Part shown: positions 1 to 9,499 of the stretch, one piece after another
Layout: the number at the start of each line of letters is the position of its first letter
How positions within the stretch are numbered: position 1 is the first letter of the stretch
Virus record (IMG/VR): IMGVR_UViG_3300009662_000082
Span: 1 to 9,499 of that record
DNA: 9,499 bases
Source of the DNA: a virus
Strand: one strand, 5' to 3'
The notes under the pieces: generated by a model
The model's input: only the letters and a program-made list of their open reading frames with translations
Told to the model about the DNA's origin: nothing
The model's database searches: none
Made by a program: the position numbers and the translations under genes

Positions 1-123
1 AGATGAATCATTGGTTAAAAGCATCGCAGACAATGTTATGCGCACTGTATTGGCTGATTTCTCCAATCAGGCTGTTATTAGGCAACGCAGTAAACTTCAA
101 TTTTTAACATTCAGGCGTAACCC
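1..123 (+). repeat. Terminal direct repeat, left copy (identical to 9377-9499)
   Basis: Base-by-base comparison: agatgaatcattggttaaaagc...ttcaggcgtaaccc is present at both window ends. Confidence 0.97.
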
Positions 124-1095: not shown

Positions 1096-2529
1096 ATGAA
1101 AAAAATACTCAATATTTTTGTTTTGTTTTTTCTAGCATCTTTCTTTTTCGCAAATTTTGCTCAAGCACAAACCACTTATAAATATAGTTGCGATCATCCT
1201 ATGAGTTATGCTGGTGGTTATAATTGTCCAGACCCGAGTTATAAATTTACTGATCCTGTTGAAGCTGCTGAAAGCGCAATTACAAGCTATAAGGCGTGGT
1301 GGAAAGACCAAGTTTATAAAGAGAAATTCGTTAGTTTTTCTAAAACCTCTCCAGAATGTTCTTACTGGGATCCTAACACTCCGCAATATTACGTTTTGCG
1401 GTGTACCTATCGATACAGAATCACCTATGTCGATACCGTCGGTGGACCTTGGATTCAAACGGCTTATACAGATTCATTTGTTTTTGTTGTTCGTGAGCAT
1501 CCGTGCGAATTCAACGTTGCTTTAAAGGGTACTCTTGGGGCTGTCATTTCCTCCTCTCAATCTGATGGAAAAAAATATATTCTTTCCCAGAATCCTGGAG
1601 AGCCGGCTTGTGTAAGCACTTGCTCTTATAATCTTGATCGTCAGGACAAATGCTATTTAACTATCGGTTCTGAAACTGAAGGGTTTTGTAACTACAATTA
1701 TAAGCTTGGGCTGGACGCATCAGGTAACGAACAAAGATGTCAGACCAATCCGTCTATTAAACCGGCGGAAATCGGTGATGAAATAACTGACAAATGCTCG
1801 GATGGTTACGAATTCGCCAATGGTTCCAAAATGTGCACGCTTATTCCTTGTCCTGAAGGTTCCGAGCGTTTGGAGGGAAGTGAAACCTGTACTCCAATAC
1901 CAAAACAACCTGGTGGTGGAGGTTCTAGCGGTGATGGTGGAACAGGTGGCAGTACGGGCGGTGGAACAGGTGGCGGCACTGGCGGTTCTGGCGGCGGAAC
2001 AGGTGGTGGTACTAGTGGCACTGGTGGCGGTACTGGCAGTGATGGTGGAACTGGCGGCGGCACTGGCGGTACTGGCGGCGGAACAGGTGGTGGTACTAGT
2101 GGTACTGGTGGCGGTACTGGCAGTGATGGTGGAACTGGCGGCGGCACTGGCGGTACTGGCGGCGACACTGGTGGTGATGGTGTTACAGGCGGCGGTACTG
2201 GCGGTGATGGTGGTGGTGAAACTTTTACTCCACCAGGTCCTCTTGATTTGTCGGCTTCTGTTGCTGGACGTGGTGCGCAAGCAAAATCACAGCTCATTGA
2301 TATGAAACAAAAAATGGTTGCATCCAGTACATTCACTACTGCGAAATCTGCTTTCAGCGGTTCTTCTCATGCTGCTGCTGTTTGTCCTGTTGGTTCTGTA
2401 TCTCTTTTTTCAAAAGAAATTGTTTTTGATAGTCACTGCAAGTTATTTGCTCTCATATCGCCAATTTTGAAAGCAGTGTTTATTGCTGTTTGGTCCTTTC
2501 TTGCCGTTCGTATCATCCTGACAGCTTGA
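1096..2529 (+). CDS. gIII-like minor coat / host adsorption protein (477 aa from ATG 1096; the ORF track starts at TTG 1048)
   Basis: Signal peptide MKKILNIFVLFFLASFFFANFAQA. Cys-rich N-terminal domains, a long GGTGG(S/T) glycine linker (about 1912-2217), and a C-terminal hydrophobic anchor (ISPILKAVFIAVWSFLAVRIIL). Positioned after gVIII as in Ff. Confidence 0.85.
   Translation: MKKILNIFVLFFLASFFFANFAQAQTTYKYSCDHPMSYAGGYNCPDPSYKFTDPVEAAESAITSYKAWWKDQVYKEKFVSFSKTSPECSYWDPNTPQYYVLRCTYRYRITYVDTVGGPWIQTAYTDSFVFVVREHPCEFNVALKGTLGAVISSSQSDGKKYILSQNPGEPACVSTCSYNLDRQDKCYLTIGSETEGFCNYNYKLGLDASGNEQRCQTNPSIKPAEIGDEITDKCSDGYEFANGSKMCTLIPCPEGSERLEGSETCTPIPKQPGGGGSSGDGGTGGSTGGGTGGGTGGSGGGTGGGTSGTGGGTGSDGGTGGGTGGTGGGTGGGTSGTGGGTGSDGGTGGGTGGTGGDTGGDGVTGGGTGGDGGGETFTPPGPLDLSASVAGRGAQAKSQLIDMKQKMVASSTFTTAKSAFSGSSHAAAVCPVGSVSLFSKEIVFDSHCKLFALISPILKAVFIAVWSFLAVRIILTA
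1993..2160 (+). repeat. Tandem 84-bp (28-codon) duplication inside the glycine linker
   Basis: 1993-2076 and 2077-2160 differ at one base (ggc at 2017-2019 versus ggt at 2101-2103). Both encode GGTGGGTSGTGGGTGSDGGTGGGTGGTG. Confidence 0.9.
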
Positions 2530-2537
2530 GGTGATTT

Positions 2538-2825
2538 ATGTTGTCCACACTTGCTTCTTGGTTCAAATCAATTTTCGAGCAGATTGCAACTTGGATAATC
2601 GACATCTTTTTTCTGGTGCTCGGTTGGATGTGGGATGCATTTATTTTCCTTCTCGATTCTTTAGGTTTGGCTGATCAAATTCGTACTTCTGCAACCGCTT
2701 TTGATGGTATTCCTGATTCGGTCTGGTATTTCATGAACATGTTTCAGATTCAGTTTGGTCTGGGCTTGATAATTGTTGCCTACCTTATTCGGTTCATGAT
2801 TCGTCGTATTCCGGTGATTGGCTGA
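2538..2825 (+). CDS. gVI-like minor coat / membrane protein (95 aa)
   Basis: Very hydrophobic, with multiple predicted TM helices. Lies between the gIII-like and gI-like genes. SD GAGGTGA precedes the ATG. The stop overlaps the next ATG (gcTGATGg). Confidence 0.7.
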   Translation: MLSTLASWFKSIFEQIATWIIDIFFLVLGWMWDAFIFLLDSLGLADQIRTSATAFDGIPDSVWYFMNMFQIQFGLGLIIVAYLIRFMIRRIPVIG

Positions 2826-3916
2826 TGGCTGTACATGCTTATGTTGGTAAGCCAGGACATGGCAAGACCTATGGTGTTACTGAGCGAGTTGTTATTCCAT
2901 CGCTTAAACAAGGTCGTCATGTTGTAACCAACATCCCCTTAAATATTGATGACTTGCTTGCTGATTTTGGCGGAACAATTCAGCAGCTTCCAGAAGACTG
3001 GTTTGAACTGCCTGACTTGGCCGAATACGTGTTACCTGGGTGTGTTTTGATTATTGACGAAGCATGGCGTCGCTGGCCTCAAGGCCAGAAAGCTAATCAG
3101 GCTAATCCTTGGGATAAGACTTTACTGGCTGAACATCGACACATGGTTGATTCCAAAAACAATTCGATGCGCATTGTCATCGTTACTCAGGATCTTTCTC
3201 AGATTCCCAGCTGGGCAAGAACCCTTATTGAAACAACATTCCGCGTTGTTAAGATCTCCAAGAAAATTTATCGGGTCGATGTTTATTCCGGTGTTGTTAC
3301 TGGCGATAAACCTCCAGTTTCTAATAGGATTCGGCAATTTCCGGGGCGTTTTGACAAAACCATTCAATCCTATTATCAGTCTGCAACACATTCTGCTACT
3401 GGTACTGTTGGTGATGAATCTGTTGCTGACAAGAGTGCGTCTTTTCTGCGCTCGTATGGCTTGTGGTCATTAATTATTGTTGCTGTTGTTGGCTTGCTCA
3501 TTGGCATTTTCGGGATTAAGAGTTTTTTCAAAAAACCTGAAACCCAGACACATCAAGATTCCCCTCAGAAAAAGACTGTTACTGAGGTTCAGACTCCTAA
3601 AATTGTTCCTGTTCCGCCACCTATTATTTACTCTGATTCTTGGAGATTAACCGGTTTCGTCCATCCTTCTGAACCTGATCCAAATGCCAAGCGTGATTCT
3701 TCTGTGGCTGTACTTATCGATAATGCTGGTCACTTGCGTTACATATCTTTTTCAGCCTGTCGTTTCTTCTCTGATTTCAAAGAGGCTTATTGCGACATCG
3801 ATGGTGAACGTGTCACTACCTGGACAACACAAAAAACTTCTTTTTCCATGCCGCCCATTATAAGTGGCTTAGGCGGTGGAGCTGCTCAGCGTAGCGCAAG
3901 CAGCCCATCCGGCTAA
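2825..3916 (+). CDS. gI / Zot-like assembly ATPase (363 aa)
   Basis: N-terminal Walker A GKPGHGKT and Walker B-like VLIIDEAW. A single mid-protein TM helix (LWSLIIVAVVGLLIGIFGI) and a periplasmic C-terminal domain, which is the Zot/pI architecture. Confidence 0.9.
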   Translation: MAVHAYVGKPGHGKTYGVTERVVIPSLKQGRHVVTNIPLNIDDLLADFGGTIQQLPEDWFELPDLAEYVLPGCVLIIDEAWRRWPQGQKANQANPWDKTLLAEHRHMVDSKNNSMRIVIVTQDLSQIPSWARTLIETTFRVVKISKKIYRVDVYSGVVTGDKPPVSNRIRQFPGRFDKTIQSYYQSATHSATGTVGDESVADKSASFLRSYGLWSLIIVAVVGLLIGIFGIKSFFKKPETQTHQDSPQKKTVTEVQTPKIVPVPPPIIYSDSWRLTGFVHPSEPDPNAKRDSSVAVLIDNAGHLRYISFSACRFFSDFKEAYCDIDGERVTTWTTQKTSFSMPPIISGLGGGAAQRSASSPSG

Positions 3917-3940: not shown

Positions 3941-5170
3941 ATGAAAACTTTGTGTTCAATGATGTGTGTCGTTCTTTTCGCTGCATGTTTTTCAGTTTTT
4001 GCAGATGATGAAAGGATGAATTTCGATTTTGACGCTATTCCCTCGAAAACTGCCTTACAGCTTATTGCTGATTTTGCCCGTCTTAATTTGGTTGGTGCGG
4101 ATGATGTCGATGGCTCGATTACGATGCGAATGAAGTCTGTTACTTGGCAGAAGGCTTTGGAGTATGTTGTCAAAACTAAGAGCCTTCATTATGAAATCGA
4201 GGGCAACGTTTTATATGTATCTCGTGATCCAAAGTATTTCGTTCCTCTGGATTCTCCTTTGCCAGTGAGCAAGGATGACAACAAGAATACGATTTTTAAT
4301 ATAAAACATATGCTTGCATCTGAAGCTATTGCTGGTTTTCCGCTTTTTTCCAAAGAATTCAATCAAGAATCGCTTGCTGCTAATGATGCTTCTGGTGTGG
4401 TTTTGGCTCGCCTTTCCCCATCCCGGCTCGAAGAGCTGGCCTCGTATCTAAAAGCCGTAGATTTTCCGCGAGCTCAATTAATGATTGAGGCACGCATTGT
4501 TGAGGTAGACCGATCTTTTTCCAAACAACTTGGTGTTGATTGGTCTGGAACCATCAAGGCCGGAAATTTTATAGGAAAAACTGCCAGTACTTTTGTTGAT
4601 ACCGGTTCTTTGCCTGTTAGTGGTGGCATTGGCTTTGTCTCCAGTTCTGCGATTCTAGATCTGGAATTAGCTGCGATGGAGAAGGGTGGTTATGGAAAGG
4701 TGATCTCTCGACCAAATGTCTTTGCTCGTGATAAGCAACAAGCTCGGATCGTAAAAGGTACCGAGGTTCCTTATCAGCAGACTGCAGGGCAGGGGGCTAC
4801 ATCCACCTCATTTAAGGAGGCTGTGCTTTCTCTCGATGTGACTCCGTTTATCGATGACACTGGCGTAAGGCTCGACATCAAGCTTGCCAAGGATGAGCCT
4901 GATTTTGCTAATGCACTCAATGGTGTTCCGCCTATCAAAACTGTTTCTCTAGCCTCAAATGTCCGAGTAAAGCTCGGCACAACCGTTGCCCTTTGTGGTG
5001 TGTACTCGACGATTGAGACAACCCAGGAGCATCGCGTTCCTGGTCTAGCTTCAATCCCATTTCTTGGCCGGATTTTTCGTTATGAAACGCAATCGACTTC
5101 AACAGCGGAACTGATTCTTTTCATTACTCCAACCTTGGTGCCAGCGGCTGATGTCGCTCAAGTCATGTAG
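3941..5170 (+). CDS. gIV-like secretin (409 aa), with a PilQ-like N-domain
   Basis: Signal peptide MKTLCSMMCVVLFAACFSVFA. The secretin C-domain shows GKVISRPNVFARDKQQARIVKGTEVPY and the C-terminal motif VPGLASIPFLGRIFRY...LILFITPTLV. Confidence 0.9.
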   Translation: MKTLCSMMCVVLFAACFSVFADDERMNFDFDAIPSKTALQLIADFARLNLVGADDVDGSITMRMKSVTWQKALEYVVKTKSLHYEIEGNVLYVSRDPKYFVPLDSPLPVSKDDNKNTIFNIKHMLASEAIAGFPLFSKEFNQESLAANDASGVVLARLSPSRLEELASYLKAVDFPRAQLMIEARIVEVDRSFSKQLGVDWSGTIKAGNFIGKTASTFVDTGSLPVSGGIGFVSSSAILDLELAAMEKGGYGKVISRPNVFARDKQQARIVKGTEVPYQQTAGQGATSTSFKEAVLSLDVTPFIDDTGVRLDIKLAKDEPDFANALNGVPPIKTVSLASNVRVKLGTTVALCGVYSTIETTQEHRVPGLASIPFLGRIFRYETQSTSTAELILFITPTLVPAADVAQVM

Positions 5171-5194
5171 TGCTGATGAGTTCATAGAGCTTAT

Positions 5195-5236
5195 AGTTAT
5201 AACTAAACTAAATGCTTCTTTAGTTTAGTTATAACT
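5195..5236. repeat. Perfect AT-rich 18-bp inverted repeat (hairpin); candidate packaging signal or bidirectional stop
   Basis: agttataactaaactaaa (5195-5212), loop tgcttc, tttagtttagttataact (5219-5236). Lies 25 nt after the secretin stop, between convergent genes. Confidence 0.9.
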
Positions 5237-5293
5237 TTAATTGCTTTGGCGGAGCAGGGCAGCGGGCAAATCCCACATTCCAAATAACTTGTC

Positions 5294-5715: not shown

Positions 5716-5907
5716 CTACGGACGAACTACCGTCAGGATGATCGTGCCATCAGGTTGTTTTTCTATGTCCAGTTTGTCACCGGTGGTTAGCCCGGTAGCC
5801 GCTAGCAGATCATCAGGCAAGGGTATGATCAGGTCGCCACTGCCATCAGCGGCGTCTTCGCAGGTGACAATCCATCGTTTGTTTTCAACGCTTGGTGAAT
5901 GGTTCAT
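5716..5907 (-). CDS. AbrB/MazE/SpoVT-fold DNA-binding protein, 63 aa
   Basis: DLIIPLPDDLLAATGLTTGDKLDIEKQPDGTIILTVV fits the swapped-hairpin AbrB/MazE pattern (IP....LG...GD.L......G.I.L). I chose start ATG 5907. The 42-aa upstream extension of the track ORF looks non-protein-like and runs into the dif-like site. Confidence 0.6.
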   Translation of the reverse strand: MNHSPSVENKRWIVTCEDAADGSGDLIIPLPDDLLAATGLTTGDKLDIEKQPDGTIILTVVRP

Positions 5908-6024
5908 AGTTTTGATCCCGTGATGGCCAGAAGCTGATGATGCCTGTCTACCTTGTAAAAGGCAGTAGCAGGTCGCGTCAGGCTTAAAATCTGACCACCA
6001 GACGCTCCCACGTCCGTATAGGAC

Positions 6025-6142
6025 GGTACGCATAATATCGATGACGTTATGGTAGCTATGCCGTCGTTTTCGACGAATTTAGCGCCGGGATAATGGCGAA
6101 GCCCCGGCGCTGAATTTATCCATAACGTCCATTATGCGAGGC
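6025..6142. other. Candidate XerCD-type attachment region: two inverted dif-like sites able to form a forked hairpin
   Basis: Site A, + strand: GGTACGCATAA (6025-6035), 11-nt spacer, TTATGGTAGCT (6047-6057). Site B, - strand: GCCTCGCATAA (6142-6132), 6-nt spacer TGGACG, TTATGGATAAA (6125-6115). Compare E. coli dif, GGTGCGCATAA-TGTATA-TTATGTTAAAT. In ssDNA, 6029-6036 pairs with 6131-6138 and 6043-6052 pairs with 6120-6129. Confidence 0.45.
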
Positions 6143-6177
6143 GTAGATTTAGAGATTCTTGTGCTCAGATCGCCTTT

Positions 6178-6206
6178 CTATAATCGCTCTATAATCGCCT
6201 ATAAAG
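6178..6206 (+). repeat. Tandem CTATAATCGC repeats (2 perfect copies plus the partial CTATAAAG) at an 11/10-bp period; possible promoter -10 elements or iterons
   Basis: ctataatcgc at 6178-6187 and 6189-6198, then ctataaag at 6199-6206. Each carries TATAAT or TATAAA. TTGTGC (6159-6164) lies 15 nt upstream of the first TATAAT. Confidence 0.8.
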
Positions 6207-6314: not shown

Positions 6315-6926
6315 ATGCCAGTTTCTGTAGCAATTTTTGATGCTTTCGGCACGTTGCTAAAAATTGAGGAAGGCTCTCATCCTTACCGCAAAATCCTCAA
6401 GCTAGGGATCGAGCAAGGCCGTCGTCCCGGCAGCCGTGATGCCGAAGATTTGCTGACTAAGCCATTGGATTTAAGGCAGGCCGCTGACCATTTCGGCATC
6501 AGGGTTGAGGCTTCTATGATGAGCCGCCTCGAGTTGGATTTGGAAAGGGAGCTGGCAGGTATTGAGGCTTATTCTGATGGTCTCGCGGCTGTTAAAGCGC
6601 TCAAAGCCGCGGGCATAAAGGTTGTTGTGTGTTCGAACCTTGCTCAACCGTATGCCTCGCCAATTGAGCGACTTTTCCCGACCTTGAATGGCTATATCTA
6701 TAGCTTCGCGGTCGGTGCGACTAAACCTTCGTCCGTCATTTATCACGAAGCTTTGCAGTCGGTTTCTGCGCTTCCGGAACATGCTTGGATGGTTGGTGAT
6801 TCACGACGTTTTGACTGCGATGGGCCTACTGCTCACGGCATTCAAGGCTTCTATTTGGACCGTAAAGGTTGTGCCGGCTATGCGTCACTAGATCTGTTTG
6901 CGGAGGCTATTTTGTTAGCCCGGTGA
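6315..6926 (+). CDS. HAD-superfamily (subfamily IA, haloacid-dehalogenase-like) hydrolase, 203 aa from ATG 6315 (alternative TTG 6282)
   Basis: Motif I is AIFDAFGTL, which lacks the second Asp, as in 2-haloacid dehalogenase FDxYGTL. Motif II is VVVCSN. The motif III Lys is in GATKPSSVIY. Motif IV is MVGDSRRFDCDG. No good SD precedes ATG 6315. GGTGAG lies 5 nt before TTG 6282. Confidence 0.85.
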   Translation: MPVSVAIFDAFGTLLKIEEGSHPYRKILKLGIEQGRRPGSRDAEDLLTKPLDLRQAADHFGIRVEASMMSRLELDLERELAGIEAYSDGLAAVKALKAAGIKVVVCSNLAQPYASPIERLFPTLNGYIYSFAVGATKPSSVIYHEALQSVSALPEHAWMVGDSRRFDCDGPTAHGIQGFYLDRKGCAGYASLDLFAEAILLAR

Positions 6927-7037: not shown

Positions 7038-7060
7038 AAAAGTTCCAGCGTGGAACTTTT
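7038..7060 (+). repeat. 23-bp perfect palindrome, copy 2
   Basis: aaaagttccagcgtggaactttt: 10-bp arms around a central gcg. Confidence 0.95.
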
Positions 7061-7257
7061 CACTCTTCCTCTTCGAACCAGCCGCCTTGGGCAGGGCCAG
7101 CTAGCGGGCCGAGTGGTTCCAAACTCTTTTCAGGGTGCTTTAGAAATTCCAGAAGCTTTTCATCCGTGGCATGGATCACGCGTTCCGATTTCTGATCTTC
7201 CCCAGGTACTGCTCGCTCAAAAGTTCCAGCGTGGAACTTTTTCGGCTCATCGCTCAT
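7060..7257 (-). CDS. Candidate acidic 65-aa protein (MSDEPKKFHAGTFER...GGWFEEEE)
   Basis: ATG 7257 is preceded by GAGAGGAA with about 6 nt of spacing. Palindrome copy 3 lies inside codons 6-13, and copy 2 starts at the last base of the stop codon. By my count it has 15 D/E against 8 K/R. It may still be a chance ORF in a structured non-coding region. Confidence 0.35.
   Translation of the reverse strand: MSDEPKKFHAGTFERAVPGEDQKSERVIHATDEKLLEFLKHPEKSLEPLGPLAGPAQGGWFEEEE
7218..7240 (+). repeat. 23-bp perfect palindrome, copy 3 (with a conserved 5' flank)
   Basis: aaaagttccagcgtggaactttt preceded by ccaggtactgctcgctc. Copy 4 is preceded by the near-identical cctggtactgctcgttg. Confidence 0.95.
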
Positions 7258-7297: not shown

Positions 7298-7320
7298 TGA
7301 AAAGTTCCAGCGTGGAACTT
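7298..7320 (+). repeat. 23-bp perfect palindrome, copy 4 (with a conserved 5' flank)
   Basis: aaaagttccagcgtggaactttt, 80 bp downstream of copy 3. The extended unit of about 40 bp is shared with copy 3. Confidence 0.95.
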
Positions 7321-7355
7321 TTGATGCCTTGCCGCTCTGGTTTCGGAGCGAAGCG

Positions 7356-7404
7356 AGTGGGGGTGCTGTTACACCCCCACTTTGGTATGGTTTTCCATAC
7401 TTTT
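7356..7404 (+). terminator. Tandem hairpins, terminator-like on the + strand (end of the HAD transcription unit; convergent with the repressor gene)
   Basis: 10-bp GC-rich stem agtgggggtg (7356-7365) / cacccccact (7372-7381) followed by tttgg. Then gtatgg (7385-7390) / ccatac (7395-7400) followed by tttt. Confidence 0.5.
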
Positions 7405-7456: not shown

Positions 7457-7807
7457 TCACCGTGGTTTCCCACGGTCGGTGAAATAGTCTTCGAGCTCCA
7501 AGCTCGAAAGCACACCGCTAACTATGTTGCGAGCCATTGGTTTAACGGAATCGGGTAAATCACTGAATCGTCTAAACAAAGCTTTCATGTCTTCTGCTAC
7601 GTCACGCTCGCTCCCTTCAAGCAGGATCTCGTCTGTCGTGCATTTAAAAAGGATCGCCATGCGCACCACTTTGTCACCTGGCGGAGCATTTTTATCCTTT
7701 TCCCAGCCCGCGACGGTGTTCTCACCGCTGCCTATGGCTTCAGCCAGAGCCTTCTGAGTGAGACCTTGCCTCTCTCTTTTGATCCGGATGTTTTCTCCGA
7801 TGCTCAT
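7457..7807 (-). CDS. XRE-family helix-turn-helix repressor, 116 aa from ATG 7807 (alternative GTG 7849)
   Basis: IGENIRIKRERQGLTQKALAEAIGSGENTVAGWEKDKNAPPGDKVVRMAILFKCTTDEILL is a typical HTH_3/XRE (cI-like) domain. The gene is divergent from rep, as in CTXphi rstR-rstA and the Pf repressor arrangement. Confidence 0.85.
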   Translation of the reverse strand: MSIGENIRIKRERQGLTQKALAEAIGSGENTVAGWEKDKNAPPGDKVVRMAILFKCTTDEILLEGSERDVAEDMKALFRRFSDLPDSVKPMARNIVSGVLSSLELEDYFTDRGKPR

Positions 7808-7963
7808 TTCTGTGTGTACCAAGTAACTTTGATCGGCCAAATCTAACACCTGTATATTTATCCATCCCGAAATTATGTGGTTTTACCGCGAAATTCCGGT
7901 TGCGGCTCAAGCACCATATATCGTAGGCTATCATTCTAATTTAGTGGCTTGACAGGTTTTTGG
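7808..7963. promoter_or_regulatory. Divergent repressor/rep control region (putative lysogeny switch)
   Basis: Non-coding region between divergent genes. The direct 7-mers CGAAATT at 7868-7874 and 7889-7895 are 21 bp apart. TATAAT-like hexamers TATCAT (7929-7934) and TCTAAT (7935-7940) face rep. I could not assign convincing -35 elements. Confidence 0.5.
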
Positions 7964-9103
7964 ATGTTCATCGATTGGCTCACGATTTCGCAGGAGCATG
8001 ACCACGATCTACCGATCGTTGGCAACATCGTGCACCTGACGGTTGACGAGAATACCAATCAAGTTTTGAGCACTAGTCGACCTCGTTTCAAGCATGAGGG
8101 TAGTTTCTCCACCTCGGTCACGATTCATATTCAGGGCCGAAAAATTCGAGTTGAGGGAAATCCTAGTCGGGTAGGGCGGTTGGACAACCTGTTTGGACAC
8201 GCGACCATCGAGCAATGTGTCTCGGTCTACAACGGATTGCTGCGTGAGTACGGTCTTCCTGGCTTCACCCGTTGCACAAGAATTGATATTCGCCAAGGGA
8301 AGCCAGATTCAGTTGTTAAATCCGGTGACCGTATAGCCGACGGCGCAAAAATTGAGCGTATCGACCTAACGACCAACTTTGCATTGGGGGAGGGCAACGT
8401 ACTTGCTTATTTGCGTGGTGTTTCTAGTCAGCGTATTGGGCACTCCATCGGTTTTCTACATCCGAATGGCCGTACTGTTTCTTGGACTCCAAAGGGCAAT
8501 GGAAAAGGCGGTCGACTTCAATATCGTAAGGCCTACGACAAGGCTTTTGAGATGGATCTGAATTCTCTTCCAAAGATCAAACGTCGGTTTGGTGAATCTT
8601 CAGAAGAGTACAAATATGTTAAGCGGGTTAGAGATTACTGCGCACAAGAAGGCGTGGTCCGCTTGGAACAAGAGCTAAAAAGCGAATTTTTACAGCGTGA
8701 AGCCCTTTGCTATTGGGGCCTATTTGATGAACGGCGTTTGGCCGAACTCCACAGCGAGTTTCTTAAGATAGATGAAAAGTTAAAGGTGACAGCCATGGAT
8801 ATTGTGAGTATTGCCGAACAGTTAATTGCTGAGGGTGTTTGCGACACCCTACGCTCTGCTCGTACCACGGCTAGTTACGCTCTTGAGTGGATGTCCGGAA
8901 CAGCTAACATCGACTTTAAGAAGTCTCAGGTTAAAGGGCACGCAGCGAAGCTTAATCGAATCGGCATCAATATTCGAAATGCTTGTGACACAAGCCGCTT
9001 TGCTCCTGTTTTTGTTCGTCAATGCCGTGAAGTTTCAAAGTCTGCTTTGGTCGTCCCAGTCTGGTATCAACGGGCTAATCATCTCCAGCAGGTCGCAGCG
9101 TGA
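7964..9103 (+). CDS. Rolling-circle replication initiation protein (gII / phage CRI family), 379 aa from ATG 7964 (the track starts at TTG 7949)
   Basis: The N-terminus MFIDWLTIS and the motif EGNPSRVGRLDNLFGH resemble the conserved IDWL and GNP..x..N.FG signatures of filamentous-phage gene II/X-family Rep proteins. It is the first gene of the long + strand operon. Confidence 0.88.
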   Translation: MFIDWLTISQEHDHDLPIVGNIVHLTVDENTNQVLSTSRPRFKHEGSFSTSVTIHIQGRKIRVEGNPSRVGRLDNLFGHATIEQCVSVYNGLLREYGLPGFTRCTRIDIRQGKPDSVVKSGDRIADGAKIERIDLTTNFALGEGNVLAYLRGVSSQRIGHSIGFLHPNGRTVSWTPKGNGKGGRLQYRKAYDKAFEMDLNSLPKIKRRFGESSEEYKYVKRVRDYCAQEGVVRLEQELKSEFLQREALCYWGLFDERRLAELHSEFLKIDEKLKVTAMDIVSIAEQLIAEGVCDTLRSARTTASYALEWMSGTANIDFKKSQVKGHAAKLNRIGINIRNACDTSRFAPVFVRQCREVSKSALVVPVWYQRANHLQQVAA

Positions 9104-9312: not shown

Positions 9313-9499
9313 TGGATAAGAAACAGTTTCAGGTTCTTCGCTGGAATATCGAAGCTGACATTCGTAACCATGTGACAGATGAATCATTGGTTAAAAGCAT
9401 CGCAGACAATGTTATGCGCACTGTATTGGCTGATTTCTCCAATCAGGCTGTTATTAGGCAACGCAGTAAACTTCAATTTTTAACATTCAGGCGTAACCC
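9312..9499 (+). CDS. 5' part of the junction-spanning 85-aa hypothetical protein (continues at 1-193 of the circle)
   Basis: ATG 9312 overlaps the preceding stop (TAATG). The frame is open to the window end, and the frame agrees with the ORF ending at 193 after subtracting 9,376. Confidence 0.55.
   Translation, partial: MDKKQFQVLRWNIEADIRNHVTDESLVKSIADNVMRTVLADFSNQAVIRQRSKLQFLTFRRN
9377..9499 (+). repeat. Terminal direct repeat, right copy (identical to 1-123)
   Basis: Same 123 nt as the window start. Consistent with a circular assembly overlap or the start of a second tandem genome copy. Confidence 0.97.

What the first reader, a model, noticed from the sequence alone, without database searches (positions are those of the whole stretch)
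6025..6142. Two inverted dif-like sites that fold into a forked hairpin: a CTXphi-style ssDNA XerCD attP in a phage with no integrase
The phage has a cI/XRE-type repressor but no integrase, so a host-recombinase route to lysogeny is expected. Site A has an XerC-like arm, GGTACGCATAA (10/11 to E. coli dif), and an XerD-like arm, TTATGGTAGCT (8/11), separated by a non-canonical 11 nt. Site B, on the opposite strand, has GCCTCGCATAA (8/11, CGCATAA core intact), a canonical 6-nt spacer and TTATGGATAAA (7/11). In the packaged + strand the two sites can pair: 8 bp from 6029-6036 with 6131-6138, and 10 bp from 6043-6052 with 6120-6129. This leaves ATCGAT (6037-6042) bulged opposite a single C. The 57-nt apex carries two further hairpins, cgtcg/cgacg (6062-6075) and agcgccggg/cccggcgct (6081-6111). 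That geometry is what is established for CTXphi: two inverted dif-like sites, one with an over-long spacer, are masked in dsDNA and form a functional XerCD substrate only in folded ssDNA. Site B alone could instead act as a dsDNA attP (VGJphi type). Another hairpin, cgtcc/ggacg (6011-6025), abuts the site.
Basis: partly seen in the sequence, partly recalled or inferred. Interest (0 to 1): 0.8.

Follow-up and report, generated by a model that had tools for sequence, protein, structure and literature searches.

The report
Pseudomonas filamentous phage dif-integration hairpin
This is the attachment site of an integrase-less Pseudomonas filamentous phage: two inverted copies of the host's chromosome-dimer-resolution site (dif) that can fold into a hairpin in the phage's single-stranded DNA, and real host-phage junctions show the phage integrates at dif exactly there, as the cholera-toxin phage CTXphi does.

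Summary
The window is a circular, roughly 9.4-kb inovirus with no integrase. Positions 6025-6142 hold two inverted dif-like sites. Site A (+ strand) has an 11-nt spacer; site B (- strand) has a 6-nt spacer. The + strand folds as described (-38 kcal/mol, z = -6.3).

I recovered the full attB/attP/attL/attR set for this phage from metagenomes:
- Empty host site: GTTACGTGTAA-TGTATA-TTATGTTAAAT.
- attL: host arm joined to phage sequence from 6036.
- attR: phage sequence up to GGTACGCATAA, then TGTATATT.

The crossover therefore lies in TAAT (6033-6036), the XerC cleavage position of site A on the packaged strand. Site B is never a junction, which refutes the VGJphi-type alternative.

Relatives in Pseudomonas genomes sit at dif in one orientation (12 of 12), often in tandem arrays. 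Forty-two distinct relatives keep the same architecture: site A spacer 9-13 nt, site B spacer 6-7 nt, with compensatory changes in the central-region stem and apex hairpin.

That the substrate is ssDNA, and that XerC/XerD are required, is inferred and not shown. This is a new member of the CTXphi-type class, in a genus where I found no description of it. Published P. aeruginosa relatives were left without a mechanism.

The parts
6025..6035 (+). Site A XerC-binding arm, GGTACGCATAA. After integration it becomes the XerC arm of the regenerated dif (attR).
   Evidence: attR contigs L001 and L004 read ...GGACGGTACGCATAA|TGTATATT.
6033..6036 (+). Crossover interval TAAT, shared by attP and host dif. 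The canonical XerC cleavage position falls between 6035 and 6036.
   Evidence: Comparison of attB (L162, L133), attP (window), attL (L003) and attR (L001, L004).
6036..6046 (+). Site A over-long central region, TATCGATGACG (11 nt). T6036 and GACG 6043-6046 pair with site B. ATCGAT 6037-6042 is bulged.
   Evidence: The spacer is 9-13 nt in 42 relatives, and its XerD-proximal 3-5 nt covary with the site B spacer.
6047..6057 (+). Site A XerD-like arm, TTATGGTAGCT. TTATGG is paired; the outer TAGCT is unpaired and forms the fork.
6062..6075 (+). Small apex hairpin, CGTCG-TTTT-CGACG.
   Evidence: Relatives replace it with other short GC hairpins at the same place (GGCC-AGC-GGCC, CTGCCC-CA-GGGCAG).
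6076..6116 (+). Large apex hairpin: 14-bp stem (6076-6089 with 6103-6116) and a conserved 13-nt loop, ATAATGGCGAAGC.
   Evidence: Seven of 14 pairs show compensatory double changes, and 97.9% of cells are paired across 14 relatives.
6115..6142 (-). Site B: GCCTCGCATAA-TGGACG-TTATGGATAAA, with a 6-nt spacer. On the + strand it supplies the bottom strand of the folded site. It is never itself a junction.
   Evidence: No dif junction on the - strand in any locus.
7457..7849 (-). XRE/cI-type repressor (HTH_3). Lysogeny module of the same phage.
7949..9103 (+). Replication initiator pII (Phage_CRI and G2P_X_C). It defines the + (packaged) strand and was used to find relatives.

Best explanation
Positions 6025-6142 are the attP of a CTXphi-type integrative element that exploits the host Xer recombinases.

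Proposed mechanism, step by step:
1. In the circular + strand, site A and the complement of site B pair into a hairpin.
2. The stem carries a near-consensus XerC arm (CGCATAAT duplex, 6029-6036 with 6131-6138).
3. Next comes a central region that is bulged next to the XerC side.
4. Then comes a partly paired XerD arm (6043-6052 with 6120-6129).
5. Two nested hairpins cap the apex.
6. Host XerC/XerD bind this mimic of dif.
7. XerC exchanges the + strand after GGTACGCATAA (6035|6036) with the top strand of the Pseudomonas chromosomal dif.
8. Replication resolves the pseudo-Holliday junction.

Products:
- attL is the host XerC arm followed by the phage 11-nt spacer. Such a spacer should be inactive as duplex DNA, which would make integration irreversible.
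- attR is a regenerated dif carrying the phage's XerC arm. It can accept further integrations, which explains the tandem and mixed arrays.

Shown: the sites, the fold, the host attB, both junctions, the crossover position, the orientation, the arrays, the covariation, and the absence of an integrase.
Inferred: dependence on XerC/XerD, ssDNA as the substrate, single-strand exchange followed by replication, and irreversibility.
For: Nature of the element:
- The window is an inovirus encoding pII, pV, pVIII, pIII, pVI, pI/Zot, a pIV secretin and an XRE repressor. No ORF matches an integrase or a XafT-like factor.
- It is circular, with a 123-nt terminal repeat.

Fold and chance:
- Fold z = -6.3.
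- The motif pair is far above chance.

Host:
- Relatives with 69-89% pII identity are found in Pseudomonas genomes.

Empty attB, found with a pattern that did not constrain the XerC arm:
- 88 of 105 contigs read GTTACGTGTAA TGTATA TTATGTTAAAT.
- L162 matches the host flank of the attL contig L003 at 98.7%.
- L133 comes from the same metagenome as the attR contig L004.

The four att sequences:
- attB: GTTACGTG-TAAT-GTATA...
- attP: GGTACGCA-TAAT-ATCGAT...
- attL: GTTACGTG-TAAT-ATCGAT...
- attR: GGTACGCA-TAAT-GTATATT

Relatives:
- attL with the same host arm lies next to a chromosomal Cupin_5 gene in P. iridis (L013) and Pseudomonas sp. NPDC099000 (L015).
- 12 of 12 complete dif sites at right prophage ends are on the pII strand, and more than 20 contigs start or stop at the XerC arm.
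- Tandem arrays occur in L019 and L020, and a different element's right end lies to the left of the L020 array.
- 42 distinct relatives have a site A spacer of 9-13 nt and a site B spacer of 6-7 nt. Their central-region stems are complementary and covarying: AACG/CGTT, GACG/CGTC, GGGA/TCCC.
- The apex helix shows compensatory changes in 7 of 14 pairs.
- All divergent relatives fold to the same topology, z = -5.6 to -10.7.

Literature:
- The defining features of the CTXphi class match: two inverted sites, 12-bp and 5-7-bp spacers about 90 bp apart, (+)ssDNA as substrate, XerC making the first exchange, and completion by replication (PMC4246890).
Against: - No experiment shows XerC/XerD binding or catalysis on this DNA.
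- The - strand folds nearly as well.
- Junction position and orientation would look the same if duplex site A were the substrate.
- Invariance of the CGCATAAT stem could reflect protein binding to each site separately, not pairing.
- Homology next to the XerC cleavage point is minimal: 1 nt (T) on the phage top strand and TG on site B, against 3 nt in the P. aeruginosa relatives.
- That the host site is the true dif at the replication terminus is inferred from its 17/17 identity with the PAO1 dif central region plus XerD arm. It was not mapped.
Confidence: 0.8

Rival explanations
1. Duplex site A alone is the attP. XerCD (or another host recombinase) acts on the double-stranded replicative form. 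Site B and the hairpin serve another purpose or none.
For: The junctions fall in site A only, and that result does not itself require a hairpin.
Against: - Site A has a 9-13-bp spacer in every relative. For CTXphi, the over-long central region of attP1 makes the duplex unsuitable for Xer-mediated integration (PMC4246890).
- Site B is retained in all 42 relatives although it is never a junction.
- The two central regions and the deviant XerD arms (TTACGT/ACGTAA) change together.
Confidence: 0.08
2. The same hairpin is the substrate, but it is extruded as a cruciform from the supercoiled replicative form and is not formed in free + ssDNA.
For: Both strands fold with similar energy. From my own knowledge, not checked here, cruciform extrusion is described as one route for folded integron attC sites.
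Against: - The palindrome is imperfect and has a 67-nt structured apex, which I would expect to disfavour extrusion (my own reasoning, not checked here).
- An extruded cruciform would also present the - strand hairpin, whose XerC-cleavable strand is site B, yet no site B junction exists in 12 of 12 cases.
- Inoviruses supply abundant + ssDNA.
Confidence: 0.07
3. Site B, with its canonical 6-nt spacer, acts as a VGJphi-type double-stranded attP.
For: It has a canonical spacer length and an intact CGCATAA core.
Against: - No attL or attR junction lies in site B.
- Every junction lies at the XerC side of site A.
- Every regenerated dif is on the pII strand, the opposite of what site B would give.
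Confidence: 0.01
4. The region is only a replication or packaging element (minus-strand origin or packaging signal), and the resemblance to dif is incidental.
For: The apex hairpin covaries strongly and its loop is conserved. This suggests a function beyond holding the two sites together.
Against: - The junctions map precisely inside the region.
- The dif-like motif pair is far above chance.
- A separate origin-like element at 7341-7403 is conserved at 97% where its flanks are about 77%.
Confidence: 0.02

Closest known systems
CTXphi attP(+) of Vibrio cholerae, with the class members RS1, YpfPhi and CUS-1Phi listed in PMC4246890
   Same: - Integrase-less inovirus.
- Two inverted dif-like sites, one with an over-long spacer (12 bp in CTXphi, 11 here) and one with a 5-7-bp spacer (6 here).
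- The two sites are separated by a short loop (about 90 nt in CTXphi, 67 here).
- The + strand folds into a stem that presents XerC and XerD arms around a partly unpaired central region.
- Crossover is at the XerC side.
- attR regenerates dif.
- Tandem arrays form.
   Different: - The host genus is Pseudomonas.
- The phage backbone differs: the window carries its own pIV secretin gene.
- The apex carries a strongly covarying hairpin with a conserved loop.
- Only 1-2 nt of homology lie next to the XerC cut.
- The host XerC arm (GTTACGTGTAA) is less consensus-like than the phage's own arm.
- Nothing has been tested biochemically.
P. aeruginosa integrase-less prophages Pf 17897 (OR621025) and Pf 36-2 (OR621019), plus phage WX_Y and phage silverpheasant213 (PMC10675462)
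   Same: - Homologous pII, 44-77% identity.
- No integrase.
- Same double-site hairpin at the left prophage end.
- Their 12-nt terminal repeats, TTCGCATAATGT, equal the PAO1 dif XerC arm plus TGT.
   Different: - The paper reports only 'intergenic region' insertion and guesses at host integrases. It does not mention dif or the hairpin.
- Those phages are about 7 kb. Their annotation tables list no secretin and no HAD-type gene.
- They share 3 nt (TGT) of central-region homology with dif.
VGJphi-type and TLCphi-type IMEXs
   Same: They also use host XerCD and dif.
   Different: - VGJphi uses a single duplex site and integrates reversibly.
- TLCphi uses a single duplex site and integrates by a XerD-first exchange. 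From my own knowledge, this depends on a Xer activation factor, XafT.
- Here the canonical-spacer site is not the junction, no XafT-like protein is encoded, and the crossover is at the XerC side.

Membership tests
CTXphi-type IMEX (folded ssDNA attP(+)) | No element-encoded integrase | tested here: met
   Pfam and PHROGs scans of all ORFs of 60 aa or more give no recombinase. The genome is a closed circle.
CTXphi-type IMEX (folded ssDNA attP(+)) | Two dif-like sites in inverted orientation, one with an over-long central region and one with a 5-7-bp central region | tested here: met
   Site A has an 11-nt spacer and site B a 6-nt spacer, 67 nt apart. The same holds in 42 relatives, with spacers of 9-13 and 6-7 nt.
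CTXphi-type IMEX (folded ssDNA attP(+)) | The + strand folds so that the two sites pair into one Xer-site-like stem | tested here: met
   Predicted DNA fold, z = -6.3. The same topology appears in divergent relatives. Compensatory changes occur in the stem and apex. This is a prediction, not a structural probe.
CTXphi-type IMEX (folded ssDNA attP(+)) | Integration at the host dif with the crossover at the XerC-arm/central-region border, regenerating dif at one end | tested here: met
   attB/attP/attL/attR set. 12 of 12 regenerated dif sites lie at right prophage ends.
CTXphi-type IMEX (folded ssDNA attP(+)) | Tandem or mixed arrays at dif. These are needed in CTXphi for rolling-circle production from the prophage. 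| tested here: met
   Exact tandem copies in L019 and L020. A heterologous element lies to the left in L020. L015 carries a 285-nt deletion derivative. Phage production itself was not tested.
CTXphi-type IMEX (folded ssDNA attP(+)) | Requires XerC catalysis and the presence of XerD. The substrate is ssDNA. Completion is by replication. Integration is irreversible. | not testable with these tools
   Needs genetics and biochemistry. Only the indirect arguments given above are available.
VGJphi-type IMEX | A single duplex dif-like site with a canonical spacer is the recombination site | tested here: not met
   Site B, the only site with a canonical spacer, is never a junction.
TLCphi-type IMEX | XerD-first exchange driven by an element-encoded Xer activation factor (XafT) | tested here: not met
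   No ORF gave any Pfam or PHROGs match to a recombinase or a Xer activation factor. The crossover is at the XerC side.

The most novel reading that the evidence does not exclude
The attP may be a composite with a second function, and integration may rewrite the host's dif.

1. The apex hairpin (6076-6116) shows 7 of 14 covarying pairs and has a conserved 13-nt loop. It may be an independent ssDNA module nested inside attP. Candidates are a minus-strand origin, a packaging signal, or a folding nucleator that keeps the site free of ssDNA-binding protein.
2. Integration replaces the host clade's unusual XerC arm (GTTACGTGTAA, 88 of 105 empty sites) with a consensus arm (GGTACGCATAA). Lysogeny may therefore change dimer-resolution efficiency and make the cell a better target for further Xer-exploiting elements.
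Probability: 0.25. Interest if true: 0.6.

Novelty: new member of a known kind. Interest (0 to 1): 0.42.

Why it matters
It extends the CTXphi-type, single-strand, host-recombinase integration strategy from Vibrio, Yersinia and E. coli to a large and diverse clade of Pseudomonas inoviruses. These come from soil, plant-associated, food-spoilage and clinical P. aeruginosa settings.

It also explains how the integrase-less Pf groups reported in 2023 integrate.

It supplies a natural series of 42 covarying attP variants, together with matched empty and occupied host sites. These could be used to study what XerCD needs from a folded substrate.

Finally, it shows that a whole Pseudomonas lineage has a non-consensus XerC arm in its dif, and that lysogeny overwrites this arm.

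Tried and rejected
- Megablast of the whole window against GenBank phages found only a 47-bp hit. Against complete E. coli genomes it found nothing.
- A search for full-length E. coli dif with up to 3 mismatches finds nothing in the window, because the sites are too diverged for that filter.
- The junction-arm pattern ACGTGTAATGTATATTATGTTAAA has no hit in viral contigs.
- A literal search of papers for the fluorescens-type dif sequence found nothing.
- Rfam found nothing relevant in the window.
- I first suspected that the odd left arm, GTTACGTGTAA, was the right end of an older element. I rejected this because the upstream genes are ordinary chromosomal genes (Cupin_5, TonB receptor, GGDEF/EAL) and empty sites carry the same arm.
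- The small apex hairpin could not be scored on the MAFFT alignment because its register shifts between relatives (helix 3). It was judged by eye.
- The PMBT54 paper turned out to concern an unrelated Pf3-like phage.

Full report
**What the window is.**
- The 9499-nt window has a 123-nt terminal direct repeat (1-123 equals 9377-9499). It is therefore a closed circle of about 9376 nt.
- It encodes, on the + strand:
  - pII (7949-9103)
  - pV ssDNA-binding protein (204-497)
  - major coat protein (743-964)
  - a Gly-rich pIII (1048-2529)
  - pVI-like protein (2538-2825)
  - pI/Zot (2825-3916)
  - a pIV secretin (3941-5170)
- It also encodes an XRE repressor on the - strand (7457-7849) and a HAD-family hydrolase (6315-6926).
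- No ORF matches an integrase or a Xer-activating factor. The + strand is the coding strand, and in inoviruses that is the packaged strand (established knowledge).

**The observation.**
- Reading the sequence confirms both dif-like sites and all of the stated pairings.
- The - strand folds at -37.4 kcal/mol.
- CGCATAA-N6-12-TTATG occurs only at these two places, against 0.01 expected.
- Corrections:
  - The apex is 67 nt, not 57.
  - The large apex helix is 14 bp.

**Host and attB.**
- pII relatives at 69-89% identity lie in Pseudomonas genomes.
- Near-identical metagenome contigs break at the site or cross it into foreign DNA:
  - L001 and L004 end ...GGACGGTACGCATAA|TGTATATT.
  - L003 has 227 nt of non-phage DNA, then GTTACGTGTAA|TATCGATGACG...
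- I searched metagenomes with a pattern anchored on a conserved left-flank motif and on the dif central region plus XerD arm. The XerC arm was left free.
  - This returned 105 empty sites, of which 88 read GTTACGTGTAA TGTATA TTATGTTAAAT.
  - L162 matches the L003 flank at 98.7%.
  - L133 comes from the same metagenome as the attR contig L004.
- The flanking gene is a chromosomal Cupin_5 gene, as in P. iridis and Pseudomonas sp. NPDC099000.
- The central region plus XerD arm is identical to the PAO1 dif (PMC2731167).

**Crossover.**
- The four att sequences place the exchange inside TAAT (6033-6036).
- This interval includes the canonical XerC cleavage position, on the strand where site A reads 5'-XerC arm, spacer, XerD arm-3'. 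That strand is the + strand.
- Site B is never a junction.
- All 12 complete dif sites at right prophage ends lie on the pII strand.
- More than 20 contigs start or stop at the arm.

**Evidence for the hairpin.**
- Forty-two distinct relatives keep the same layout on the pII strand. Site A has a 9-13-nt spacer and site B a 6-7-nt spacer.
- The XerD-proximal 3-5 nt of the two spacers remain complementary through different sequences: AACG/CGTT, GACG/CGTC, GGGA/TCCC.
- In one alignment of 14 relatives:
  - The large apex helix has compensatory changes at 7 of 14 pairs.
  - The central/XerD helix has compensatory changes at 2 of 10 pairs.
  - The CGCATAAT helix is invariant.
  - 92% of cells are paired, against 28-40% when the 3' partner is shifted by 1-3 columns.
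- Divergent relatives, including published P. aeruginosa prophages, fold to the same topology with z from -5.6 to -10.7.
- In some relatives the XerD arm is fully paired, so the fork is not universal.
- P. aeruginosa relatives carry the deviant XerD arm TTACGT in both sites even though the host dif has TTATGT. This argues for a pairing constraint.

**Consequences seen in genomes.**
- attL joins the host arm to the 11-nt spacer.
- attR is a dif with the phage arm.
- Exact tandem copies occur in L019 (period 6727) and L020 (period 6894).
- A different element's right end precedes the L020 array.
- L015 has a 285-nt deletion derivative between the prophage and dif.

**Comparison with the known classes.**
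- The review PMC4246890 lists the features of the CTXphi class:
  - two inverted sites
  - spacers of 12 bp and 5-7 bp
  - about 90 bp between the sites
  - (+)ssDNA as substrate
  - XerC making the first exchange
  - completion by replication
  - irreversible integration
  - phage production by rolling-circle replication
- It names RS1, YpfPhi and CUS-1Phi as members.
- Every sequence-level feature is met here. The enzymology cannot be tested with these tools.
- The VGJphi and TLCphi classes fail their defining tests.

**Novelty.**
- I found no description of a dif-integrating Pseudomonas inovirus in the held library.
- The closest published relatives are Pf 17897, Pf 36-2, WX_Y and silverpheasant213.
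- These were reported as integrase-less, with 11-12-nt terminal repeats in an 'intergenic region', and with the mechanism left open (PMC10675462).
- For the two prophage records I read, Pf 17897 and Pf 36-2, the 12-nt repeat is TTCGCATAATGT. That is the PAO1 dif XerC arm plus TGT, and both carry the same double site.
- This is therefore a new member of a known kind, with strong natural-history evidence and no biochemistry.

**Rivals.**
- Duplex site A acting alone is disfavoured by the spacer length and by retention of site B.
- Cruciform extrusion is disfavoured by the imperfect palindrome and by the absence of site B junctions.
- Site B acting as a duplex attP is refuted.
- An origin-only role is excluded by the junctions. 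A separate conserved element at 7341-7403 is also the better origin candidate.

Noticed in passing
window 1-123 and 9377-9499: An exact 123-nt terminal direct repeat. The contig is a closed circle (or was assembled from a tandem array) with a unique length of about 9376 nt. An 85-aa ORF (PHROG 6290) runs across the join.
   Followed up: yes
L107-L211 (empty host sites), e.g. L162:2416-2467: In this Pseudomonas lineage the native dif has an unusual XerC arm, GTTACGTGTAA (88 of 105 contigs; ATTACGTGTAA in 7; GTTGCGTGTAA in 4), against GATTCGCATAA in PAO1. Lysogeny replaces it with the phage's consensus-like arm. I did not find this sequence in the searchable literature.
   Followed up: partly
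window 7341-7403, hairpin 7356-7381: A short non-coding stretch is conserved far above its surroundings: 97% in L011 and 88.5% in L013, against about 77% for flanking genes. It is also the only nucleotide match to phage silverpheasant213. It contains the hairpin AGTGGGGGTG-N6-CACCCCCACT, found on the pII strand in 12 loci. It is a likely plus-strand origin.
   Followed up: partly
window 7038-7060, 7219-7241, 7300-7322: Three copies of a 23-nt palindrome, AAAAGTTCCAGCGTGGAACTTTT, lie between the HAD gene and the repressor gene. Two of them overlap the ends of a called 65-aa ORF on the - strand (7060-7257). Their function is unknown; operator, terminator or origin repeats are possible.
   Followed up: no
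window 6315-6926: A HAD-family hydrolase gene (Pfam Hydrolase, HAD_2) sits between attP and the repressor. It has no PHROGs match, and the annotation tables of the roughly 7-kb P. aeruginosa relatives list no such product. It looks like cargo, in the position where CTXphi carries ctxAB next to its attP.
   Followed up: partly
window 6167-6206: Two and a half tandem copies of CTATAATCGC(C/T) lie just downstream of site B and upstream of the HAD gene. They could be stacked -10-like boxes or a protein-binding array.
   Followed up: no
window 6011-6026: The flanking hairpin CGTCC/GGACG is real in the window, but its pairing is not kept in relatives. Instead the sequence GTATAGGACGG immediately 5' of the XerC arm is conserved. 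It may be the promoter of the divergent AbrB/MazE-like gene (5716-5907, - strand) or an accessory site.
   Followed up: partly
window 5716-6033 (- strand): The 105-aa ORF that overlaps site A is probably an over-extension. Gene callers on identical contigs start it at ATG 5907, giving 63 aa with an AbrB/MazE-type fold and a PHROG 661 match. attP is therefore intergenic.
   Followed up: yes
window 1800-2300 (pIII): The Gly/Thr/Ser-rich repeat region of pIII varies in length between otherwise more than 99% identical contigs: 493 aa in the window, 491 aa in L002, 414 aa in L001 and L003.
   Followed up: no
L015:16437-16732: A 285-nt element lies between a full prophage and dif. It consists of the first 104 nt (the attP hairpin) and the last 96 nt of the phage, joined by about 98 nt of unique sequence. 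It is an internally deleted second copy that still has both ends.
   Followed up: partly
L018:6334-7335 and L020:8930-9017: In P. lundensis a tyrosine-recombinase ORF (Phage_integrase, 333 aa) and a window-like AbrB gene region lie immediately left of the prophage. In L020 the right end of a different, window-like element abuts the tandem array. Mixed arrays of elements therefore form at dif.
   Followed up: partly
window 5191-5240: An AT-rich 22-nt inverted repeat (95% complementary, 6-nt loop) lies between the convergent pIV gene and the 122-aa ORF on the - strand. It is a candidate bidirectional terminator or packaging hairpin.
   Followed up: no
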